A stretch of DNA of 64,000 nt from Eledone cirrhosa. Lineage: Eukaryota. Made by a program: the position numbers and the translations under genes. The stretch lies in the NCBI GenBank assembly GCA_964016885.1, contig OZ024740.1, positions 96,534,001-96,598,000 of the forward strand, in the 5' to 3' direction. The stretch's first letter is position 1; the number at the start of each line of letters is the position of its first letter. This document shows positions 1 through 61,620 of this stretch, in pieces. A model generated the notes under the pieces. The model was not told where the DNA came from, did not search any database, and worked only from the letters and a program-made list of their open reading frames with translations.

Positions 1-1189
1 CTGTTAAATGGATATCCCTCAATTATATATATATTCCATTGACAATGTATGATATTAAAGATTATTACCTACAATTAAACCGAATAATTCAATTTATTTG
101 GCTAGCAGCCAAATCAAATATGGCAAGACAACTCTTCCATGATAAGCTTAGTTCCATTTAATAAATGTGTACCTGGTTTGATGCTTCAGCGTAACACAAC
201 ATAATCAGATTTCTTCTTCAATACCTGAGGTGGAACATCAGATGAATGTTGTTTTATATGAACATTCAGATAGAGAATTTAGAGATTTCTGATTCTGTTC
301 AACACTAACATAATTAAAAGTTTGGAATGTTTTGCTATACCAGTTATGAGTATATGGATGCCATTGTTAAAGTGTACTCCGGGATCATGATTATGAAGAT
401 AATCCATAGAAATAGCCATATTGAGAAACTTAAAATATCAGCAAATATATCCCACAAACAAGAGATAGTAATAGTTGTGGTAGATTAGATAGTATATATA
501 TTTGTTTATGAATAAACCTAGTCAATACATCGGTGATATCAATCGAAAGGAATATGGTATAGAAAAACTTTACATAGGAACATACGCCAACGGAGATAAA
601 ACTGGAGACGCGATATTTTCAAATTTTCCGAGAAGCGATATCATTTGGCTTCTTTGGAAATATTTCTTAGTCAGTGTTATCATTATGTACCTCATAGATA
701 TTCTTGGCGTGAATGTCGTCATCAAACTATTGTCGAAATTCTCGAATTGATCATACCAATTCCCTCTACCATCAAGCCATGCCTCAAGAGTCTGTAATTG
801 CACCTCATATAGAGAAAGTCGGACCAAATAAATTGAAAAGTGAATATATACTTATCTGAATGAAAGTGAAAGCGTTATGATCAATATAGGTATGTCTATA
901 TAAATCCCAAATAGACAGATAATTTTAATGCTGATTACTTGTGATCAAAGCTGAATGGGTTTCACATGCAAGATACATTGACAGAGTTAAGAATATGGAC
1001 AAAGAACAATTATTTCCAGTAGTCATTATAAATTGGAATAGTTTTCACTTACGATATGTATGTTTATTTCTGTGAGGATGACGGTGTTTGTATTGATTGA
1101 TATGTATGCTTATATACATTAATATTTATACCGTTTGTACTAATAATATGCATTTCATGGTTGAAACATCGATTACATATTTGTATATG

Positions 1190-2204: not shown

Positions 2205-3716
2205 TTGCAAACTTGACAGACATTTAGTAATTCAGGTTCCTTGGTTCTAACTATTATTTCCTAGTGTGTTATATCCCATTATTATAAGAAAATACTATTA
2301 TTTATTTAGAAGTTTGGGTTTCTCGTCAAGAGTTCGATATTTTGAAATGTTCATATTTTTCAAGAAAAAACACATTTTTTAAAATGTATCAGTTCATAAA
2401 ATTAAATCAACAGCGTATATATTTATTTTATTACACAGGCTTATCAAAAGCAAACAAGTAAAAACAAATAGCACTTATAAAGTAACTTATACACGTCAGA
2501 AATGACTGAATGTCCTGGATTTTCGGTTGTAGTCCAGGTCGCATTCCCGCACTAGCCCCCAGATATAGTCCCCATCACGTGTTCATTGTAGTGGCCCTAG
2601 TATCTGCGCTCTATCTATTTCACATCTTGGTGGAATCGTTCGCCTTGTTCTTCTGAGTAGGCGCCCATATTGCCATTGAATTCTTCTAGGTGAGCGTCCA
2701 GCATGTGGAGTGTAAGCGACATCCTGCATCCCATGGCTCCAAAATCCTTTATCAGATCCTGCACCAATTGCTGGTAGTTTTCAGCTCTGTAGTTGCCCAG
2801 GAAGCCCTTAAAAACTGCCTTGAAACAGTTCCATACTGTTCTCTCAATCCTATTGAGCTTATTGGAGAACTCGGTAGACTAACACATTCTTTTGTAGTGG
2901 TCAGAGGTGGCTTTGCTGTCTCAAAGGCAGAGGAAGGATTGGAATTTGATAAAGCCTCCTTGGAGTCCAAGCAGGAAAGCCACCATCTTGAAGTCTCCAA
3001 TGATTTCCCAATTGTACTGGTTGTATTGCATAGCTTGCAAGAGGACTTTCTCACTGTAGTAATCTTCCTTCAGGCAGACTGAATGAGCTAGGGGCTATCT
3101 CAGGAAATTGTTTCCATTGTGGATGAGGACAGCCTTCAAACTTGTGGTGGAGCCGTCTATAAATATCCGCCACCCCGTGGGCACAAACGGCACCCCAATA
3201 ACGTCAAACAGTCCAGGCACGTCATGGCAGAAGCAGAGGCCATCCCTAAAAGTGTAAAAACCTGAGAAAGGTTCCTGTCGAGGTCTCTGACTTGTCACCT
3301 GCACTTCCTCCTTGACCAAGTTCCACTGCTTCATCCTGGAGACGAATGCTTAAAACACAACTTACCCCTTATTCAGGGTCCGAAAATCCAGTATCAATAA
3401 ATCTCTTTATTTCACTTTTTAACAATTTTATACATTATTGCACTTTTATAATTTTCTTTAGGTATTAAACTTTATTTTATGATTTTAATTTAACCTGAAA
3501 CATATAGAAAAAAAAATTTAACATAAGCAAATTAAACTGACATACAGCGTTAAAATCCAGCATACAAATAATTCGTGTGAATAGCTTAGAATTTTTACAA
3601 ACCCAAACTTTTAACTGTTTAATAGCATTTAAAAAAAATTTATTTGGGACGTAAGCAACACAAAAAAAGTAATTAGAAGCCAGGAACAGAGAAAGAAAAA
3701 TGTTTGTTACACGGTA
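2205..3716 (-). mobile_element. Internally deleted DNA transposon relic, Chapaev3-like (CMC group)
   Basis: Minus-strand broken frames give WRIFIDGSTTSLKAVLIHNGN, IIGDFKMVAFLLGLQGGFIKF..FLCL*DS and HMLDAHLEEFNGNMGAYSEEQGERFHQDV. Imperfect terminal inverted repeats at ~2205-2310 and ~3595-3716 (both contain gttcct..gg.ttcta and aagtttgggttt). The family name comes from recalled motifs. Confidence 0.7.
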
Positions 3717-20515: not shown

Positions 20516-20648
20516 ACAAGCACAGTGTAGTCGGAGGAGGGGTCGTAGTTAAAGGCATTCAACCACCATCGTGAAATGCAAGTCCTAGAAATGCCACGTA
20601 ATGATGATCGCCGTTGTTCCCTTTGCAGAAGTCGGCCACGTCGTTTCT

Positions 20649-21284
20649 CTATGCTTTCAGTATTTCGCGAGGCAGCAGTGGCAGCGGCGTCCCTACTTCA
20701 TCGAACCGCGCGTCATCCTTCATCCTCTCGGGCGCGAACAGTGGATGTTGCAGTGCCGTCCCTACCTCGTCGAACGGCGCCTCGTCCTTCATCCTCTTGA
20801 GCGCGAGCAGCGGCTGTTGCAGTGGCATGCCTGCTTTGTCGAATCGCGCGTTGTCCCTCATCCTCTCGAGCACGAACAGCGGATGTTGCAGCGACGACCC
20901 TGCTTCGTCGAACGGCTCGTCATCCTTCATTCTCTCGAGCACGATCAGTGGATGTTGCAGCGGCATTCCTGCTTCGGCGAACGGCACGTCGTCCTTCATT
21001 CTCTCGAGCGCGAGCAGCGAATGTTGCAGCGGGGTCCCTGCTTCCTCTAACGGCACGTCGTCCTTCACCATCTCGAGCGCAAGCAGCAGCGGTGGCGGCA
21101 GCATCTTTGTTCCGTCTAAGTTCACGCCGACTGCCATCCTCCTCCGCACTTGCAGCTGCTGTCTGCACAGCATTCTGTGAGAGCCTGATCGCAGTTGCAT
21201 TACATCTTCGGTGAGATGCCTTCGCTTAGACCTACTTGCATCATTAGATAATCGACCAATGAAAGTCCTTTTCTTGGGGGGCAT
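20649..21284 (-). pseudogene. Helitron Rep/Hel N-terminal remnant with 60-bp (20-aa) tandem repeats
   Basis: Basic MPPKKR start; about 7 copies of a 60-bp unit at ~20670-21110 (RARENEGRRAVRR-type frame); Rep domain absent. Confidence 0.65.
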
Positions 21285-23994
21285 TGTTTTTAGAAAATTA
21301 ACCAGGGAGAACGATACATATTGGACAAATAACGTTTAAATAAGGGAATCTATACACGGATATAAATTGTGAAAAAATGTGATAAATCTATGTGGTCTGA
21401 AAGAGTGGGTATGTTTTGCAAGATTTTGTGAACCAATCAAATTTCAGGTTTTATGTCAGGGGCAAGCAGCATACGGACTACATGTGATAAAGGAAATTAA
21501 ATAGTGAGGCTACAGTGGTAGGTATATAAGTGTCAGTATGTTTTTTTTTCAGTTCGCACATAGCAATAAGTAAGTACTTACCATTGAAAGGATACAGGCA
21601 AAAATGGCCGAAAAATCAGAGCATGATAAACTGGAAACTTATGACCATAAACCCATTAACTAAACCTGCTTTAAGGTCACAAATGTTGAAGAAGCATGCG
21701 TTTCAGAAATATGGAGTAGCTTATGTAAAAAAACATACCACTTGTCATAAGCCAAAAAAGAAGTGTGATCCTAGGTCGGACTTGACCGATATAAATAGGA
21801 GTGATTTCGCTCAATGAACAACACTCGAGTTGTCAGATTGTTTAGATAATAAAAATAAGTATGATGAAATCTACTGAACACAACTCACTGATGTGTGGTT
21901 GGCCACAGGTCGCGATTTCGCACTTAACTGATGTGCAATTAAACGGGGGAGACAACCGAGTGCAAAAACTAATCAATCATTCTCACAGTTTGGGCATGAG
22001 TGTGAAATAGCACAATCCACATAGAGTAGGCGTTAAAATTTACAGCTGGGTTAAATCGCGCTTTCTTGGTTAGGAGCGTGAAATGACGCCAAAGTTCAAG
22101 GAAAAAATGTTAACTCCGCATTCCGCACTTAATTGTGGTGCAATTAGACGGGGTAGACAACCGGGTGCAAAATCAAATTTAATCATCCTAAAGTTAACTA
22201 AACAAAGTGAAATTAAGTCAGGGGGATTTAAAAATTCGCTACGCCATTTCTAGGACATGAGTACCTGATGCGTCAACCTTCGTTTAAACTGACTTTTATT
22301 TCAAGAAGTTGAAATCCTTTGCTGCGACTAAAATATGAACTTTAAAAGTGGTCCAAAGAGGCTCACTGCCCTCCATAGGGGGTTACCTTGCAAAATTCAA
22401 GTGATAACGAATGTGTGTTGCTTTATCTTATGGCAGACAATAACCATTTCGTTTTGTTTTTGTAATATCAAGTGTAAACTCCAGAGGTTATGGTGTTTTT
22501 TTTATTGTGGCAGTTTGAACTTTTATAGGTTAATAAATTGGGTTCATTGTCCCCGACGGTGTCCTCTTGCTGAATTGAAATGAAAGTAAATGTGATTCAC
22601 TGTATCTTCATTTGTAGTACATGAATTACAAGTCGAAATTAATTTTATTGGACTAAGAATTATCGAAGCTATGATGATTTGCTGCATTACAATAGCCAAG
22701 TACAATAAATGACTCGCCGGGGCTTACAGCCCCCTGGGTGTCCCCATGCTTGTTCCGGGTATAGACTCTTTCTTCAACATCATCTTAGGCAATGGGTAAC
22801 CAATGTGTCCTGTGAAGTGAAAATCGAACGTAAACTTCAAAGGTTATCAGGTACTAATACAGTTTTGATAGTCGAGGGGGCTTACTGCCCCACGCAGGGT
22901 TACCTTTGATAAGTTCAAGTAAAAGTCCATGTGTTCACCTTCCTTTATAAGCCATGGGTAACCAATGCATCTCGCTTCGTGAAAGCAAAACACCAACTGA
23001 AGCAGTTATGACGTTTTGTTACATTGATGATATCAACTTCATCATTCATCTAGTCGGTTTACTGCCTGCCAAGGGGTCCCCTACCTGAATTTTTTGCGCC
23101 AGTGCAAATTTATTTGTAGGCCATAAGCAAACAAAAGATTAATTTAGGTGAAGATGGGAGGCAACCTGCAGGAATTATGGGGTTTTTATGCAGTAGTACT
23201 GTTGAATCCATGCTTAAGTGGGGTTATTTGTCTCTAGGATGCCCCACAATCAAGGTACGGAAAATGAAAATAGCCTAGGACGCGTAGTCGGACTTCAGAA
23301 ACTTGTGTATGAAATATGGTGCAAATCGGTTGGGAAATGTAGAAATGCATCCGGCTACACACACAGACAGACATATATCTTATATTTTATATATATAGAA
23401 ATATATATACAATATATTAACAAATGGAAACTATATTTATAAAACCATATTTATTTCATTATACATATTTCAAGGACACCAAAGCACATTATGGTGCGCT
23501 TTCATCAAATAAAATATAATATAGATCAGTTTTATAAACAAATATTGACATACCATTAAAGAATGCAACCATGTCGGTTGGAAGCTCCTGGATAGTGGGG
23601 TTACTAATTTTATTATTGGTCTATTATGCAAATTAGTGTCGGAATGGTTTAAATCCCAAATATTTAAATTAAGCCGTTGGAATAAAGAAAAGGAAACAGA
23701 ACGAAAGAAAAACAATAGAAAAGAAAGAGAAAGAGAGAAAACCCTAAGTGAGAGAGTGTTGTATTAACGTAATTTTATGAGATGATGAAGCGAAAAGATA
23801 AATATATAGTGGATGAATTACGCGAAGTAAATAAATCGTAATAACCGGAGAATGTTATCTAATGTTTAAATTATATTAAATTATTGAAATCTATAAATAA
23901 AAAATAAAAAATTGAGATCTATATATTATTAAAAGAAATCTATATATTATTAAAAGAAATCTATATATTATAAAAAGAATATATAATTAAAAGA

Positions 23995-31879: not shown

Positions 31880-31917
<38 letters not shown>

Positions 31918-31920
<3 letters not shown>

Positions 31921-32124
31921 AACGAGTAGGACCCCGACGGCTGAGCTCAAGCCGTTTGGACGGCTAATTCTGGACTAAAACCACCTTTGACCAGAATTAT
32001 CCGTCGAAACGACTTGAGCTCAGCCGTCGGGGTCCTACTCGTTCCTATTACCAACTCTACTACCCTAAGTATTGAGTACTTTGGTGAGTTATGGTCCATC
32101 TGTTCCCTTACAACATTTCCTTCG

Positions 32125-32127
<3 letters not shown>
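31918..32127 (+). mobile_element. Mini fold-back of the 32186-34086 family
   Basis: 31918-31978 is inverted against 31993-32048, followed by the family tail; lies between TA tracts. Confidence 0.8.
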
Positions 32128-32191
<64 letters not shown>

Positions 32192-32271
32192 ACGAAGGAA
32201 ATGTGGTAAGGAACCAGGTGGACCATAACGCACCAAAGTACTCAATACTTGTGGTAGTAGAGTGGGTAATA

Positions 32272-32383
32272 GGAACCAGTAAGACCCCGACAGCTGAGCT
32301 CAAGCCGTTTCGACGGCTAATTCTGGACTAAATGAAAATTTATCCTGGTATTTAAATAGCCGATCTTCTCAAGGGGTAATTCC
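32272..32383 (-). ncRNA. Type I hammerhead ribozyme, U3-A8 variant (mirror copy)
   Basis: Reverse complement of 33973-34084. Confidence 0.75.
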
Positions 32384-33972
32384 ATATATGGTCAAAGTGA
32401 TTGTCAAAAATCAGTAGTAATTCTGTGGTTGCAAATTAGTAGGGGAGATGGTGGCTAAACCTGCCAGTAGGAGAAAGAGGGGAGGGGTGGAGTAGACCCA
32501 ATCAAGCGCTGGTAGTGCCAGCTACAGCTGGGCATGAGGTCAAAGAAGATACAGGGGAGGGGTAGGGGAGGAAGTCGGAACGGTAGGTAGAACAATGGGG
32601 GGTAGAAATATAGGAAGGAAAAAAACTGAGAGTGAAGAAAAGCAAATAAGTGTAAAGAAAAAAGTAAAGTAAATTAAATTCTACGACCTAGGTGTCAGGC
32701 TATTGTTAGGCTAGAATAAAATAAAGAAAGAAAGAAAGAAAAAAGAAATAAATAAATAAAGAAATAACGAAATAAGTAAAAGAACTAGGTTGGACGGATT
32801 AGGCAAAGACCCTTTTAAGAGGTATAAGTACGTAAATGATACGGTGACGGGTCAACAAAAGGGGCCAAAATACTAAAGAGACTACCACGAAATAAACAAT
32901 AAAGGTTTCCATCCCGGGCCAGCAACGACCCAGTGCAGCAAAGTGAACTTGTACGAGATAATAATTCTAGGTCCCGAGAAAAATATATACTAATGCTAAC
33001 TCTAAAAGATCTAAAACAAGCTACATGAAAGTTCGTACGAAATAAAGGTAGAATACGGAGAAATAAATTCAGAATCCACCCCGCCCAGAAGAAAAGCGAA
33101 GCAAGAAATACTGAAACGAAAAAATAAGGCATAAGTCCCACTAAGAAATATAGTTATATATAGTTATATATAGAATATATACTATTCTCTGTGCCCTCTA
33201 TATTTCTTCGTGGCACTTATGCCTTATTTTTTTGTTTCAGTATTTCTTGCTTCGCTTTTCTTCTGGGCGGGGTGGATTCTGAATTTATTTCTCCGTATTC
33301 TACCTTTATTTCGTACGAACTATCATGTAGCTTGTTTTAGATCTTTTAGAGTTAGCATTAGTATATATTTTTCTCGGGACCTAGAATTATTATCTCGTAC
33401 AAGTTCACTTTGCTGCACTGGGTCGTTGCTGGCCCGGGATGGAAACCTTTATTGTTTATTTCGTGGTAGTCTCTTTAGTATTTTGGCCCCTTTTGTTGAC
33501 CCGTCACCGTATCATTTACGTACTTATACCTCTTAAAAGGGTCTTTGCCTATTTCGTCCCACCAGGTTCTTTTACTTATTTCGTTATTTCTTTATTTATT
33601 TATTTCTTTACTTCTTTCTTTCTTTCTTTATTTTATTCTAGCCTAACAATAGCCTGACACCTAGGTCGTAGAATTTAATTTACTTTACTTTTTTTCTTTA
33701 CACTTATTTGCTTTTCTTCACTCTCAGTATTTTTTCCTTCCTATATTTCTACCCCCCATTGTTCTACCTACCGTTCCGACTTCCTCCCCCTCCCCCTCCC
33801 CTGTATCTTCTTTGACCTCATGCCCAGCTGTAGCTGGCACTACCAACGCTTGATTGGGTCTACTCCACCCCCTCCCCTCTTTCTCCTACTGGCAGGTTTA
33901 GCCACCATCTCCCCTACTAATTTGCAACCACAGAATTACTACTGATTTTTGACAATCACTTTGACCATATAT

Positions 33973-34082
33973 GGAATTACCCCTTGAGAAGATCGGCTAT
34001 TTAAATACCAGGATAAATTTTCATTTAGTCCAGAATTAGCCGTCGAAACGGCTTGAGCTCAGCTGTCGGGGTCTTACTGGTT

Positions 34083-34084
<2 letters not shown>
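33973..34084 (+). ncRNA. Type I hammerhead ribozyme, U3-A8 variant
   Basis: Stem I ACCCC/GGGGU, core UUGAGAA, stem II GA(U)CGGCUA/UAGCCGUC, GAAA, stem III CGGCU..AGCUG, GUC^ at 34067. Confidence 0.75.
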
Positions 34085-34132
<48 letters not shown>

Positions 34133-34174
34133 GAAAATAAACCAAAGAAGCCTTCAATACATCAAAAGTCTTTA

Positions 34175-34217
34175 TTAGCCAACAATGTTTCGTCCTATTA
34201 AGGACTCATCAGGGCAA
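34175..34217 (-). ncRNA. Minimal type I hammerhead ribozyme in the inverted pLTR
   Basis: Reverse complement of 38752-38794. Confidence 0.82.
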
Positions 34218-34412
34218 GTAAAGCTATAAGAAGCACTATCGGCCAATACAACCCAAAAACTCAGAAGAACATGGAGTACACATACATTAAAGCATAGGAA
34301 AATTATCAAGTAAAAATTATCAAGTAAAAATTGCTAAGGAAGTGAATAACATTTTGAACCATATTACAAATATAGTACAATGCAAAAACTAAAACTAAAC
34401 ACAAGTGGTGAT

Positions 34413-36956
34413 ATTAATAGGAATAGGACTGACCCCAGGCATAGAACTCCTTTCAATAACTTTGGCTTCAAAACTTATAAGAGCCCACCACATAATGTTC
34501 TATTAGATAATTTTGAAAATGATTTACTTTCCCTTGTCAAAAATATTAAGTATAGGCCATATAATAGACATGGAAATTATAATAAGTTTGTCAGGTTCCA
34601 GTCTAGACTTAAAAATAGTGTTACGGATTTTAGAGCGAATACGTCTATTCTTGTCCCGGCTGATAAGACTAAGAATTTTTACTCTATGGATTACAGTGCT
34701 TACCGTAATTTTATTTATAAGGAGCTGCATAGAAATTATAAAAAGACTACGCAAGATAATTTGGATCATATCAATAATGATGATCTTAAGATAGTCTAGG
34801 ACCTTGGCCTTGATAAGTATACCCAGCCATATTACCCTAGGGAACCGAGATTCACTCTTAAGGATCATAAGGTAGACTTCATTAGTAATCCCTCTGTTAG
34901 ACTCATCTGTCCTTCTAAGTCTGATATAGCCATAATTAGTAAGAAAATCCTTGACCTTATTATACCAGCCGTTAGAGAGAAGGTTAATTTTAGTCTATGG
35001 GGGAACACTAAGGAGGTTATAGATTGGTTCTCTGGTATTAATAAACTTGAATCTAGTAGGTTTATTCAGTTTGATATTGATGCCTATTACACATCGATTT
35101 CACCTATCCTCCTTAATAAAGCCTTAATGATGGCCATGAGAGTATCTAGCCTTACACGATCACAGATTGATATTATACTAGCAGCCCGTAGAACTATCAT
35201 CAATTTCGAGGATACATTTTGGACCCATAAAAACACGCCCAACAATTTCGACGTTACAATGGGTTCGAGTGATTCGGCCCAGGTAACTGATCTTGCTGGG
35301 CTGTTCCTCCTAAATGAACTGTATGTTACATTTCCGCACCTTAAAGGTGGTCTTTATCGTGACGAACGATTGTTTGTGATTGACTCTAGCACCAATAACA
35401 TCGAGCATAATAAGAAGAAACTTTATAAGTTTTTTAAAAGCTTTAACCTTTCGATCACGATAGATAGAAATGATAGAGCGGTCAACTTTTTAGATGTGAC
35501 TTTGGATTTGCTCACTAATAGTTTTAAACCCTTCCATACGCCTAATGAAATACTCTCTTATGTTAGTCCCAATTCTAACCACCCCAAATCTATGATAAGC
35601 TCTATAATTAATGGTGTATCTAATAGAATTCTCACACTCTCTAAGGACATAGGAATAGATAATGCACATGCAGAGTACTATAATAATGCCCTAGCTAACT
35701 CCGGTTACTCTGGTAAAATACATTATAATAATAGTAACCTTAGAAAGTCTCCGCTTACATATAATAATAATAACATAATATCCCATAATATGGCCATGAA
35801 TGGGAGTAGAAAGCATAAGAATCGTAGAAATCATATAGGTGTATCCGAACCCATCCATAAGTTAAGCCACTGGATTCGTAATAGGGAATCTAATAGTTCT
35901 AGGGATCAAGTTGGGCGCTCTGAGCGCTCATTCAGTGGTAATGCTTTTGCAAAATCTAATTCTAATAGTGTTGTTTCTATTAGTAGCCCTAATACTATTG
36001 ATATGATTCCAGATAGCATTAGATATACTAAAGGTAGAAACAGAACGAGACTCAATGGGGTTTCGGCTGATTCTAATAATGTGGTTTTAACTAGTCCTCG
36101 TAGTAACCCAGATCTTAATAATGGGATATTAGATAACGGTAGAGTTGGTAAGGATAGAAATAGAAGGAGACTAAATACTTATTTTAACCCGCGATATGAT
36201 CAGGAAGTATTAACTAACATCCTTAGGTCTTTCTTTTCTATCTTAGAGAAAAATGTCCCTCCTATTAATAAATACCATGGTATTTTTTATAAAAATGTAA
36301 TTAAACTATCAATATCTACCATCCCTAATATTAGTTCTCATTTAGCTAGCACTAACAATGGGAAAATTAGGGACGGCTACTCCTCTCTGCGTAATGCTAG
36401 CCTGGATAGATCCATAAATGCCTTACCACCTGAGCAGACCTTATCTCATATTAACCCTACGAGTGATGCATCACTACTTCAGCCGATCAATAGCACCCGG
36501 AAGTGTAACGGTAGAGTGAGTGTTAACTGCCCTTTAAACGGTAGCTGCCTCTCTAGGAACATCGTTTATGCTTGTGTAGTTAAAACTAATTCCTCTAATA
36601 GCACATATATAGGCTCAACATCTAACACTTTTAAGACTAGGTTTAATTCTCATATCTCTAATTTTAAATATGTTAAGTTTAAGAATTCCACTTCTTTAGC
36701 ACACCATATCTGGGATCTTAAGGGGGCTAATATACCATATAGCCTTAATTGGCGAATAGTAGCACGCTCTAATAACCTATCAACACACACTAAATTCTGT
36801 AATCTCTGTATCCTTGAGACCCACTCAATAATTTTCTCTAGGGATCTCTTACTTAATAGAAAGTCTGAGATATTCTCTTCCTGCCCCCACGCCATTTCTA
36901 ATTCTTACTTTTATTATAAACCTAAAAGTTCTGGTAGTGTAAATTGTATCCATTAG
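34413..36956 (+). pseudogene. PLE RT + GIY-YIG polyprotein, 5'-truncated, one in-frame TAG
   Basis: ORFs 34380-34799 and 35127-36956 are in one frame with a single TAG at 34797. Motifs: ADKTKNFY, FTLKDHK, FDIDAYYTSI, MGSSDSAQ, LYRDE (catalytic YxDD altered), NFLDVTLDL, IVYAC..YIGSTSNTFKTRFNSH, CNLCILE. Confidence 0.92.
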
Positions 36957-38340
36957 CTGCCATAATCCCTGATTTTTTTTGTTTAGGTTCATTTTGTTTG
37001 CCACCATCATTATCATTATTATTATTGGTTTTTAACAGCTTTTCGATATAGCTTTCTTAGTCTTTTGGCTACCATACCATATCTATCTTCTTACATATTA
37101 TATTTTCCCTATTAACACCTTATGAGTTTATATCTGATTATATGTTTTATTTAATTTTATTTTATATCATTTTATTTTATTTTATTTATTTGGATTCTCA
37201 TTTAGATAATTAACCCCCACCCACCCCACACACACACTTGTCATTCGCCTCTTCAATTATACTATGATTATATTCAATTCCCTTTTATGCTCCTTTCTAT
37301 TGTATTATACAGTATATTGATTATGTTTTTATGCGCCTTCGTATCCTCCATACCTTTCTTGTTTCTGTCCCCATTGGCCTACCATAGTTCTATTTAAAGT
37401 CCGTTTATTAGATAACGTTATTCAACTGATAGTAGAATATTTCATTCTATTCTGTTTATTTTTATTGAGATATCTTAAATTTTGGAGATTTTGATTACTT
37501 AAACCATAGCTAATTTTGTATTGACTTATTATGTATTTTAAATACGTTCAATATTAATTAATTTAATACGGTTTTCTAGTCATTTATCCGGGTTTGATTC
37601 CTAATTTTTTTACTTAACTGCTTGTGACACCTAAGTAAATATATTTGTTTTTGTTTTTCGATTTCCGGTTGATTTTATTTATATTTTTTACTACCGTGCG
37701 TAGTTTCTGTCTGGCTGTTATTCACTTATTCACATATGTCTGTCTACCAACCATGTAATTATGTATAGTATACTATGTTTATTATTTGATATTGAAGTTG
37801 TTATACCATATCACTCTGTGTAATCGTACTATAGATCTTAAATATTTACCGATTATTCGATGTACCCTTATGTTAAATTTTGTAAATTCTGTAATATGTT
37901 TATATTTTTATATTTTCATAATTTTTGTAATGTTTAGATAATATTTATTTATACCAATTGTATAAAAACTTGACCTCCGCCTGTTTTCTTACAACGGTAT
38001 AGATATTTTTCCAGCACAATTTTTTCAACACAATTTAGTTCAGTATGATATTTTTTTCTCACCATGTGTGTAACTTTATATGATTTGTTAAGTTATATGC
38101 CAATATATTATAATATTGTTATTATAGTGTTATTGTAATATTTATATTGTTTGTGCAAATTGACAGGAGATTATAAATTATATAATGATAGTATATTATA
38201 TATTATATGTTCATTTTTACTCTTTCCTTTATCATTTTATACTGTAAATAATATATGTATTATATTTTTATTTTTATTTTTATTTGTATTTAAACTCTTA
38301 ATAAGTGTTAGTTTGTGTTTGTATTGATGGATATGTGTAT

Positions 38341-38438
<98 letters not shown>

Positions 38439-38751
38439 ACATATGCATATATATATATATATATGTATATTGGGCCTTTTAATATTGTTATTATTATCAT
38501 TATCAATTATATTATATTATATTATATTATATATAGTACTGTAATTCTCGCTTTATATCACCACTTGTGTTTAGTTTTAGTTTTTGCATTGTACTACATT
38601 TGTAATATAGTTCAAAATGTTATTCACTTTCTTAGCAATTTTTACTTCATAATTTTTACTTGATAATTTTCCTATGCTTTAATGTATGTATACTCCATAT
38701 TCTTCTGAGTTTTTGGCTTGTATTTGCCGATAGTGCTTCTTATAGCTTCAC

Positions 38752-38794
38752 TTGCCCTGATGAGTCCTTAATAGGACGAAACATTGTTGGCTAA
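38752..38794 (+). ncRNA. Minimal type I hammerhead ribozyme
   Basis: GCC-CUGAUGA-GUCCU-uaau-AGGAC-GAAAC-auu-GUU^GGC, followed by AATAAA. Confidence 0.85.
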
Positions 38795-38938
38795 TAAAGA
38801 CTGTTGATGTATTGAAGGGTTCTTTGGTTTTTTTTCATAATTCTTCGGCTCTGTTTAATTACATTGATCTATACCTTTACTGTCATTTCTATAATATGAA
38901 GAGGTTGTTTAACTCCAACACACTCTAGTATTTTAATT

Positions 38939-60953: not shown

Positions 60954-61620
60954 AAAGATGGAATCGAAATTGCAACTGGAGTCTTATTTTTAGAAAAAAT
61001 ATATATTTATTTAGTTCCTTTACCAGTTTCGCAGTTCTGCTTTTCAAAAGGAGAGTAGGTTTTCTTACATTAAGTTGGTCTCCGAATGTTACTTGTTTTA
61101 TATGGAAAAAAGTGGCTCGAAACGCCAGGTTTTTAGAGAAGTAATTTTATTGACTGGTTGGTCAATAATTATAATAAATTTCGCGCCAGTTCGCGTTACA
61201 AAGTTCTTCAAACAAGGGGGGGGGGGCAGGTTGTGTTTACTATATGGTTAATGCAGTCACGTGAATAAGCACATCAACTTTCGCGCCAGTTTGTTTGAAT
61301 TTCTTTTTACTTAAAAAGGGGCTCACCAAGCCTTTTTTTATGAATGTAATTTGATTGGTTATAAATGAAATTATGGCTGTCACGTGAACCAGTTCATTAA
61401 ATTCGTACCCGTATTTGGGAATTTATTTTGTAAATTTTTAGAGATTGTTATGACAAACAAAAGATAATGGTCAAGAGAAATTGGATGGGGGGAATTGTTC
61501 TGGTTCAGTGAATATGGGAAGGTTGTTTTTTCATATATTAGGGAAGTTTGGTTGGTTGATGCAGTCACGTGAATAAGTACATCAGCTTTCGCGTTAGTTT
61601 GTTTCAATATATTTTTACTT
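60954..61620 (-). mobile_element. 3' terminal fragment of a PLE related to 27216-29466
   Basis: Reverse complement of ~61088-61120 (gagccacttttttc.atataaaacaagta) matches 29247-29276; shares TTTCGCGCC motifs; carries a hammerhead. Confidence 0.65.
61016..61052 (-). ncRNA. Minimal type I hammerhead ribozyme, U3-A8 variant
   Basis: UCCUU-UUGAAAA-GCAG-aa-CUGC-GAAA-CUG-GUA^AAGGA, then AATAAA. Confidence 0.75.

What the first reader, a model, noticed from the sequence alone, without database searches (positions are those of the whole stretch)
33973..34084. Elaborate hammerhead with a compensatory U3-A8 core (UUGAGAA)
Seen: all three stems, GAAA and GUC^ are intact, while both C3 and G8 are changed, to U and A. 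Stem I can extend through an internal loop (GGAA/UUCC), stem II has a ~37-nt loop, and stem III is an almost perfect palindrome (ACGGCU-u-GAGCUC-AGCYGU). Established: positions 3 and 8 form a tertiary Watson-Crick pair and U3-A8 can retain activity. A search for CUGANGA would miss this ribozyme. The same covariation occurs in an unrelated sequence at 61016, which argues for selection rather than decay.
Basis: partly seen in the sequence, partly recalled or inferred. Interest (0 to 1): 0.75.

Follow-up and report, generated by a model that had tools for sequence, protein, structure and literature searches.

The report
Penelope hammerhead with promoter-like loop
This is a hammerhead-shaped RNA motif with an already published U-A core pair at the end of a very abundant jumping gene; it likely cuts slowly at best, because relatives multiplied with that pair mismatched, and most copies begin inside its large loop at what is likely the element's transcription start.

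Summary
The motif is real: a type I hammerhead at 33979-34072 (+), predicted cut after 34067, at the 3' end of a truncated arm of a 3,542-bp Hydra-clade Penelope-like element (PLE) with intact copies elsewhere. U3-A8 is the family state: 2,161 of 2,191 genomic matches, none C3-G8. It is not new: U3-A8 is published for Schistosoma PLE hammerheads and other natural hammerheads, and this scan noted it before on other pieces of this genome. The selection argument is weakened: 588 matches in sister subfamilies carry mismatched C3·A8, and the window's subfamily nests within them. Added points: the 37-nt loop holds a TATA-like box (33998) and an initiator-like motif (A at 34027); 15 of 19 randomly sampled arms start at or near that A. 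Outer ends of copies fall 20 or about 103 nt past the cut site, so the copied RNA was uncut or re-ligated there. Best reading: a weak, partly dispensable ribozyme overlapped by the element's promoter. Cleavage and transcription start are untested; no RNA data were available.

The parts
33973..34084 (+). type I hammerhead motif with extended stem I
33984..33990 (+). core UUGAGAA (U3 ... A8)
33991..34044 (+). 54-nt stem II arm with 37-nt loop (34000-34036)
33998..34005 (+). TATA-like box TATTTAAA, 29 nt before the likely start (inferred)
34025..34031 (+). initiator-like TTAGTCC; A at 34027 is the commonest 5' end of short copies (likely transcription start)
34038..34053 (+). competing hairpin AGCCGU-CGAA-ACGGCU, predicted to break stems II and III
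34048..34067 (+). stem III (6 bp, near-palindromic) and GUC triplet; predicted cut after 34067
33181..34087 (+). 5'-truncated arm of the Hydra-clade PLE (3' UTR only, unit 2655-3542, 97% to an intact unit), ending 20 nt past the cut site at (TA)n
32186..33153 (-). inverted partner arm with identical hammerhead (32377-32284) and the 103-nt tail
31916..32131 (.). short head-to-head insertion of a sister subfamily holding only 3' halves of the hammerhead
34088..34129 (.). (TA)n target tract
61016..61052 (-). second U3-A8 hammerhead, minimal type, separate repeat family

Best explanation
The motif is the hammerhead at the 3' end (pseudo-LTR) of a young, very abundant Hydra-clade Penelope-like retrotransposon; it is likely a slow, partly dispensable self-cleaver, and its long stem II loop likely doubles as the element's core promoter. 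Shown: membership in the element, U3-A8 as family state, amplification of C3·A8 sisters, 5' ends of most copies in the loop, 3' ends at +20 or about +103. Inferred mechanism: RNA polymerase II starts at about A34027 of an upstream pseudo-LTR, so the mRNA begins with only the 3' half of the ribozyme and cannot cut there. The element's RT initiates internally at +20 and +103, as shown in vitro for an anole PLE. On the 5' end of the mRNA it runs off after about 60 or 143 nt and leaves the thousands of short head-to-head inserts. Long copies need initiation beyond the complete 3' hammerhead, so fast cleavage would remove the initiation sites unless the RNA re-ligates. A weak core (U3-A8, at times C3·A8) plus a near-isoenergetic off-fold would therefore be tolerated.
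For: Intact 3,542-bp tandem units with one open frame (717 aa from the first ATG) and the Hydra motifs RWR, DKT, CxCX5C, CxxC and CxH. Core counts 2,161/2,191. 10,271 matches to the 3' half against 2,191 to the core and 3,191 to the 21 nt before it. 5' ends at unit 3498-3515 in 15 of 19 randomly sampled arms (one arm at a locus edge dropped) and 33 of 36 arms picked on the 3' half only; mode 3502 = window 34027 in both sets. YYANWYY at this place in 168 of 184 core-bearing arms, TATA-to-A spacing 29-31 in 179 of 184; a TCAGT variant keeps the initiator while weakening the nested RNA hairpin. 3' ends: 18 at +20 and 12 at +100 of 36. C3·A8 588 matches, C3-G8 6; the young U3-A8 clade (100/99) is sister to a C3·A8 copy (99/94); the 10 main C3·A8 rows are rejected as one clade (p-AU 0.026). 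Off-fold 0.4 kcal/mol above the hammerhead fold. Anole PLE: internal RT initiation defines the tail, hammerhead mutants insert normally (PMC11167929, parts 1-2).
Against: No RNA evidence for a start or for cleavage. No extra G before arms that start at 34027 (1 of 9; 7 have C), so no cap-copying mark. Junction microhomology blurs 5' ends by a few bases. TATA and initiator conservation is among close relatives and may be ancestry alone. The return to U3 and the extension of stem III in the youngest lineage suggest selection for the fold, so the ribozyme may matter. Long perfect tandem arrays (4 or more units) fit a cleaved, circularised template. The tree rests on 505 columns about 1 kb from the motif, the AU group was named after a first tree was seen, and recombination between subfamilies is not excluded.
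Confidence: 0.6

Rival explanations
1. A fully active monomeric hammerhead under selection: it cuts precursors to unit length, the RNA circularises and RT copies the circle; U3-A8 is a true compensatory swap.
For: A stable 6-bp stem III and hammerhead MFE. U3-A8 fixed in two other families (99 of 100 listed; 28 of 28). In 864 kb, 53 of 57 hits at score >=12 have a Watson-Crick 3-8 pair. N7 varies freely while A8 stays (97 of 100 listed). Exact unit-length tandem arrays. Return to U3 in the youngest clade.
Against: 588 C3·A8 matches, with tandem full-length units. Only 2 of 29 tail-bearing random arms start within 3 nt of the cut site. Low activity of core double mutants other than G3-C8 in PMC9901934. 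No stem covariation above shuffles in 16 aligned copies.
Confidence: 0.22
2. The 5'-end hotspot is not a transcription start but RT termination: the inverted repeat AGCCGT-ACGGCT folds in the new cDNA and releases it 5-15 nt later.
For: The hairpin is present in all subfamilies seen, and 5' ends fall just beyond it with a spread of about 15 nt. No cap G.
Against: The mode sits exactly on the A of an initiator-like motif with a TATA-like box 29-31 nt upstream, and the distribution has an upstream edge with a downstream tail, as expected for run-off plus trimming.
Confidence: 0.1
3. A catalytically dead relic: the shape is kept as promoter DNA and as a protein-binding or RT-positioning structure, and position 3 drifts.
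For: U to C to U drift at position 3 while the family kept amplifying. G8, the usual general acid (known role, also named), is absent throughout. The fold is no more stable than shuffles.
Against: U4 G5 A6, A8 A9, GAAA and GUC stay fixed across subfamilies about 15% diverged (partly imposed by my search patterns). Natural U3-A8 is reported as active in vitro (PMC3088659 citing its ref. 32).
Confidence: 0.08

Closest known systems
U3-A8 minimal hammerheads of Cercyon PLEs, Schistosoma mansoni (Cervera and de la Pena 2014, PMC4209133; parts 1-2 of 4 read; supplement not seen)
   Same: Type I hammerhead in a PLE pseudo-LTR with U3-A8 in place of C3-G8 (about 1,300 hits reported); G10.1-C11.1.
   Different: Those motifs are minimal, with little or no helix III, and need dimers. 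Here stem III is 6 bp with a 7-nt loop, the stem II arm is 54 nt, and the host is a Hydra-clade element.
Hydra clade of C-terminal-EN PLEs (Craig et al. 2021, PMC8557442; passages, section 11, supplement parts 1-2 of 59)
   Same: RWR (RWK), DKT, CxCX5C linker, CxxC and CxH, C-terminal GIY-YIG, (TA)n targets, inverted 5'-truncated copy, tail, 3' hammerhead.
   Different: All Hydra hammerhead rows in File S2 have a CUGA core, stem III of 3-4 bp and a loop II of 3-10 nt. The unit here is 3.5 kb with a 1.2-kb 3' UTR (published ones mostly under 3 kb) and the tail is about 83 nt (published 30-40).
Anolis Poseidon PLE, in vitro (Frangieh et al. 2024, PMC11167929; parts 1-2 of 4 read)
   Same: Two internal RT start sites downstream of the cut site that define the tail; cleavage not needed for insertion.
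   Different: Different clade; canonical C3-G8 minimal hammerhead; no start site inside the ribozyme reported in the parts read.
PLE pseudo-LTR promoters (Schostak 2008, PMC2377424, passages; Arkhipova 2013, PMC3846280, passages)
   Same: Promoter in the pseudo-LTR; putative TATA plus initiator noted in Adineta vaga PLEs.
   Different: The passages read do not place them inside a hammerhead arm or link them to the 5' ends of genomic copies.

Membership tests
Type I hammerhead ribozyme | Three helices around a junction with helix I open | tested here: met
   (stem I 0.97, G10.1-C11.1 0.62, stem III 0.63-0.75)
Type I hammerhead ribozyme | Core CUGANGA / GAAA / NUH | tested here: not met
   C3 and G8 are U and A; the other core positions match. 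A published variant.
Type I hammerhead ribozyme | Watson-Crick 3-8 pair kept across the family | tested here: inconclusive
   2,161/2,191 in this subfamily, but 588 C3·A8 in sisters
Type I hammerhead ribozyme | Compensatory changes in the stems | tested here: inconclusive
   no covariation above shuffles in 16 close copies
Type I hammerhead ribozyme | Rfam hammerhead model match | tested here: not met
   no match to this motif; the long arm and changed core would lower such scores
Type I hammerhead ribozyme | Site-specific self-cleavage | not testable with these tools
   no bench or RNA data
Type I hammerhead ribozyme | Stem I-stem II tertiary contact | tested here: inconclusive
   a possible ACCAG/CUGGU pairing is lost in sister subfamilies
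Hydra-clade PLE | Single ORF, RT then C-terminal GIY-YIG | tested here: met
   best database hit carries PF01541; 46% and 38% to the neighbouring element whose C terminus weakly matches GIY-YIG
Hydra-clade PLE | RWK-like, DKT, CxCX5C linker, CxxC and CxH motifs | tested here: met
   RWR, DKT, CNCPDRSIC, CNLC, CKH read against the definition
Hydra-clade PLE | (TA)n target, tandem and inverted structures, tail | tested here: met
Hydra-clade PLE | Placement in an RT tree with reference Hydra proteins | not tested
   reference proteins were not brought into a tree
Minimal dimer-dependent PLE hammerheads | Helix III absent or 1-2 bp, palindromic | tested here: not met
   6-bp helix III; still near-palindromic, predicted homodimer -26.5 vs monomer -5.0 kcal/mol

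The most novel reading that the evidence does not exclude
In this PLE lineage the hammerhead is split by the element's own TATA-initiator promoter, which is built into stem II. The mRNA 5' end carries half a ribozyme, about four in five insertions are RT run-off products that record the start site in DNA, and the 3' ribozyme is kept deliberately slow (U3-A8, C3·A8, an off-fold) because cleavage would remove the RT initiation sites. The subfamilies form a natural U-A, C·A, U-A series for testing whether PLEs need cleavage.
Probability: 0.35. Interest if true: 0.68.

Novelty: new variant of a known kind. Interest (0 to 1): 0.45.

Why it matters
What PLE hammerheads do is stated as unclear in Craig et al. 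2021, and an anole PLE inserts without cleavage in vitro. This family offers a young intact element plus natural paired and mismatched cores that each amplified to hundreds or thousands of copies, so cleavage rate can be set against success. It also shows that CUGANGA descriptors miss abundant families (at least three in this genome). If the start site holds, it explains the short fold-back inserts typical of PLEs. The U3-A8 core alone is not news.

Tried and rejected
Rfam: no hammerhead hit on the motif, only AT-repeat noise. Pfam on 8 window ORFs: only a sub-threshold GIY-YIG. Sequencing runs: no RNA holder listed. Contigs of 4 runs showed the element and more depth over the 3' half and tail, but cannot show starts or levels; not used as evidence. 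Loop II / stem I pseudoknot (ACCAG/CUGGU): rejected, not kept in sisters. Idea that U3-A8 goes with a long stem III: rejected, since the 61016 family is minimal and C3-G8 families with 4-5 bp stem III exist. Copies starting at the cut site: 2 of 29 random tail-bearing arms within 3 nt, 3 of 146 in selected loci; no footprint. Cap-derived G: not seen. Stem covariation: none above shuffles. A close C3-G8 relative with the same long arm was not found downstream of 21 distant ORF ends, so the origin of U3-A8 is not placed. Przybilski and Hammann 2007, Lunse 2017, Martick and Scott 2006 and Arkhipova 2017 could not be read; measured U3-A8 rates and further PLE core variants in them may bear on activity and novelty. 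Literature searches: hammerhead + U3-A8 gave 1 paper; C3U + G8A gave 0; the promoter searches listed no paper whose title, abstract or passages read place a promoter inside a PLE hammerhead.

Full report
Observation. The helices, the UUGAGAA core, GAAA and GUC lie at the stated places. The minimum-energy fold of 33965-34090 is the hammerhead junction, although it is no more stable than shuffles (z -0.87). My descriptor, with positions 3 and 8 free, scored the site 18. At score 14 or more it found 35 hits in 864 kb (80 evenly spaced 10-kb stretches plus the window) against a mean of 0.5 in two shuffles. The 61016 motif is also real and belongs to a separate (TA)n-flanked repeat with a minimal palindromic stem III; 28 of 28 distinct arms held show U3 and A8.

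What carries it. The motif ends a 907-bp arm (33181-34087) that pairs head-to-head with an inverted arm (33153-32186), between (TA)n tracts. Tandem arrays elsewhere give the full unit: 3,542 bp, one open frame (717 aa from the first ATG) and a 1.2-kb 3' UTR ending in the hammerhead. The protein has RWR, DKT, a CxCX5C linker, CxxC and CxH, the Hydra-clade marks of Craig et al. 2021. Many copies are 98-100% identical in the ORF end, so the subfamily is young. The ORF directly to the right (34350-36956) belongs to a different Hydra element with its own C3-G8 hammerhead.

Is U3-A8 the family state? Yes. With fixed flanks, 2,161 matches have U3 and A8, 16 differ at position 3 (13 C, all with A8), 14 differ at position 8, and none is C3-G8. 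These are dead genomic copies, so the count shows the state of the source elements, not selection. A third family, a 591-nt tandem repeat, has 5,932 matches, 99 of the 100 listed U3-A8. In the 864-kb sample 46 of 57 hits were C3-G8, 7 U3-A8 and 4 other.

Is the pair strictly kept? No. Sister subfamilies (1,365 matches to one pattern) include 588 matches with C3·A8, some in tandem full-length units, and only 6 C3-G8 among 19 G8 matches. Other sisters are U3-A8 (31 of 32 arms). I built a tree on 505 ORF columns: 34 of 55 arms plus 3 outgroup rows, after dropping 21 rows (surplus near-identical young copies and copies picked for G8 or A3). It puts older U3-A8 rows at an unresolved base, then a grade of C3·A8 rows, then a U3-A8 clade (100/99) that holds the window's subfamily and is sister to a C3·A8 row (99/94). 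The 10 main C3·A8 rows are rejected as one clade (p-AU 0.026), with the caveat that the group was named after a first tree. The likely order is U-A, C·A, U-A: amplification went on with a mismatch, and the pair later returned. An earlier scan note (e1-10307551) gave this reading and prompted the tree. Stem pairs show no covariation above shuffles among 16 close copies.

Where copies begin and end. The 3' half has 10,271 exact matches, about five times the core. Arms start at unit 3498-3515 in 15 of 19 random cases (one edge case dropped) and 33 of 36 cases picked on the 3' half; the mode is 3502 = window 34027. A tail-based count gave 15 of 29 in this zone and 2 of 29 near the cut site. I find that 34027 is the A of TTAGTCC, which fits the initiator consensus YYANWYY (consensus recalled, not from a call), with TATTTAAA 29 nt upstream. 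Across 184 core-bearing arms, 168 keep YYANWYY and 179 keep a spacing of 29-31; these arms are related, so this is not independent evidence. No cap-derived G was seen (1 of 9). Outer ends fall at +20 or about +103 from the cut site, usually one of each per inverted pair, so the copied RNA was continuous across the cut site.

Mechanism. Shown: structure, counts, ends, tree. From papers: PLE promoters lie in the pseudo-LTR; an anole PLE starts RT at two internal sites that define the tail and inserts without hammerhead cleavage; U3-A8 is described as active in vitro, but showed low activity in one full mutant scan where only G3-C8 rescued. Inferred: transcription starts inside loop II, so the mRNA 5' end lacks the core; RT run-off there makes the short fold-back inserts; long copies need initiation past the complete 3' ribozyme, so slow cleavage is tolerated. 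A competing hairpin (34038-34053) is predicted 0.4 kcal/mol above the active fold and reaches probability 0.54 in a longer context. Rivals are an active ribozyme with circles, RT termination by a cDNA hairpin, and a dead relic.

Known versus new. U3-A8 is published for natural hammerheads (Perreault 2011, passages) and for Schistosoma PLEs (Cervera 2014). The published Hydra hammerheads all have CUGA cores with short arms, so the long-armed U3-A8 form is a variant of a known kind. The promoter-like loop and the mismatch phase were not found in the searches named, but four relevant papers could not be read. This scan has noted U3-A8 PLE hammerheads, the mismatch phase and mid-motif starts before on other pieces of this genome; those are unchecked notes, not support.

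Verdict. Observation confirmed; interpretation partly supported; new variant of a known kind; interest 0.45.

Noticed in passing
L194-L208 (e.g. L198:1500-2091): 591-nt non-coding tandem repeat (retrozyme-like) with a long-armed U3-A8 hammerhead; 5,932 genome matches, inverted arms and (TA)n ends.
   Followed up: partly
window 34128-38841: A second Hydra-type PLE: ORF 34350-36956 with one stop, C3-G8 minimal hammerheads at 34158-34228 (-) and about 38741-38811 (+), inserted in the same (TA)n tract.
   Followed up: partly
window 29744 (-), 29879 (+), 56308 (-), 62182 (+), 51180 (+), 23508 (-): Further hammerhead motifs of other families, C3-G8; the one at 23508 is U3·G8, likely a decayed copy of a C3-G8 family.
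   Followed up: partly
L042:6771-9901 and L043:1-2742: A 55-bp piece of the element's ORF (unit 1714-1771) is repeated in tandem dozens of times at the junction between a tandem array and its inverted arm.
   Followed up: no
L015, L023, L108, L158: The same inversion junction (one arm from unit 3508, the other from 3502) recurs in separate short inserts; either favoured microhomology or an amplified mini-element.
   Followed up: no
L050, L091, L104, L105, L117, L118: More distant sister subfamilies seen only as 3' halves, with a changed stem III loop; their cores were not recovered.
   Followed up: partly
L041 unit positions 2-190 (minus strand): The reading frame stays open from the cut site through the tail for about 63 codons before the first ATG.
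   Followed up: no
window 20589-21335: Tandem 69-bp repeat array with open frames on both strands.
   Followed up: no
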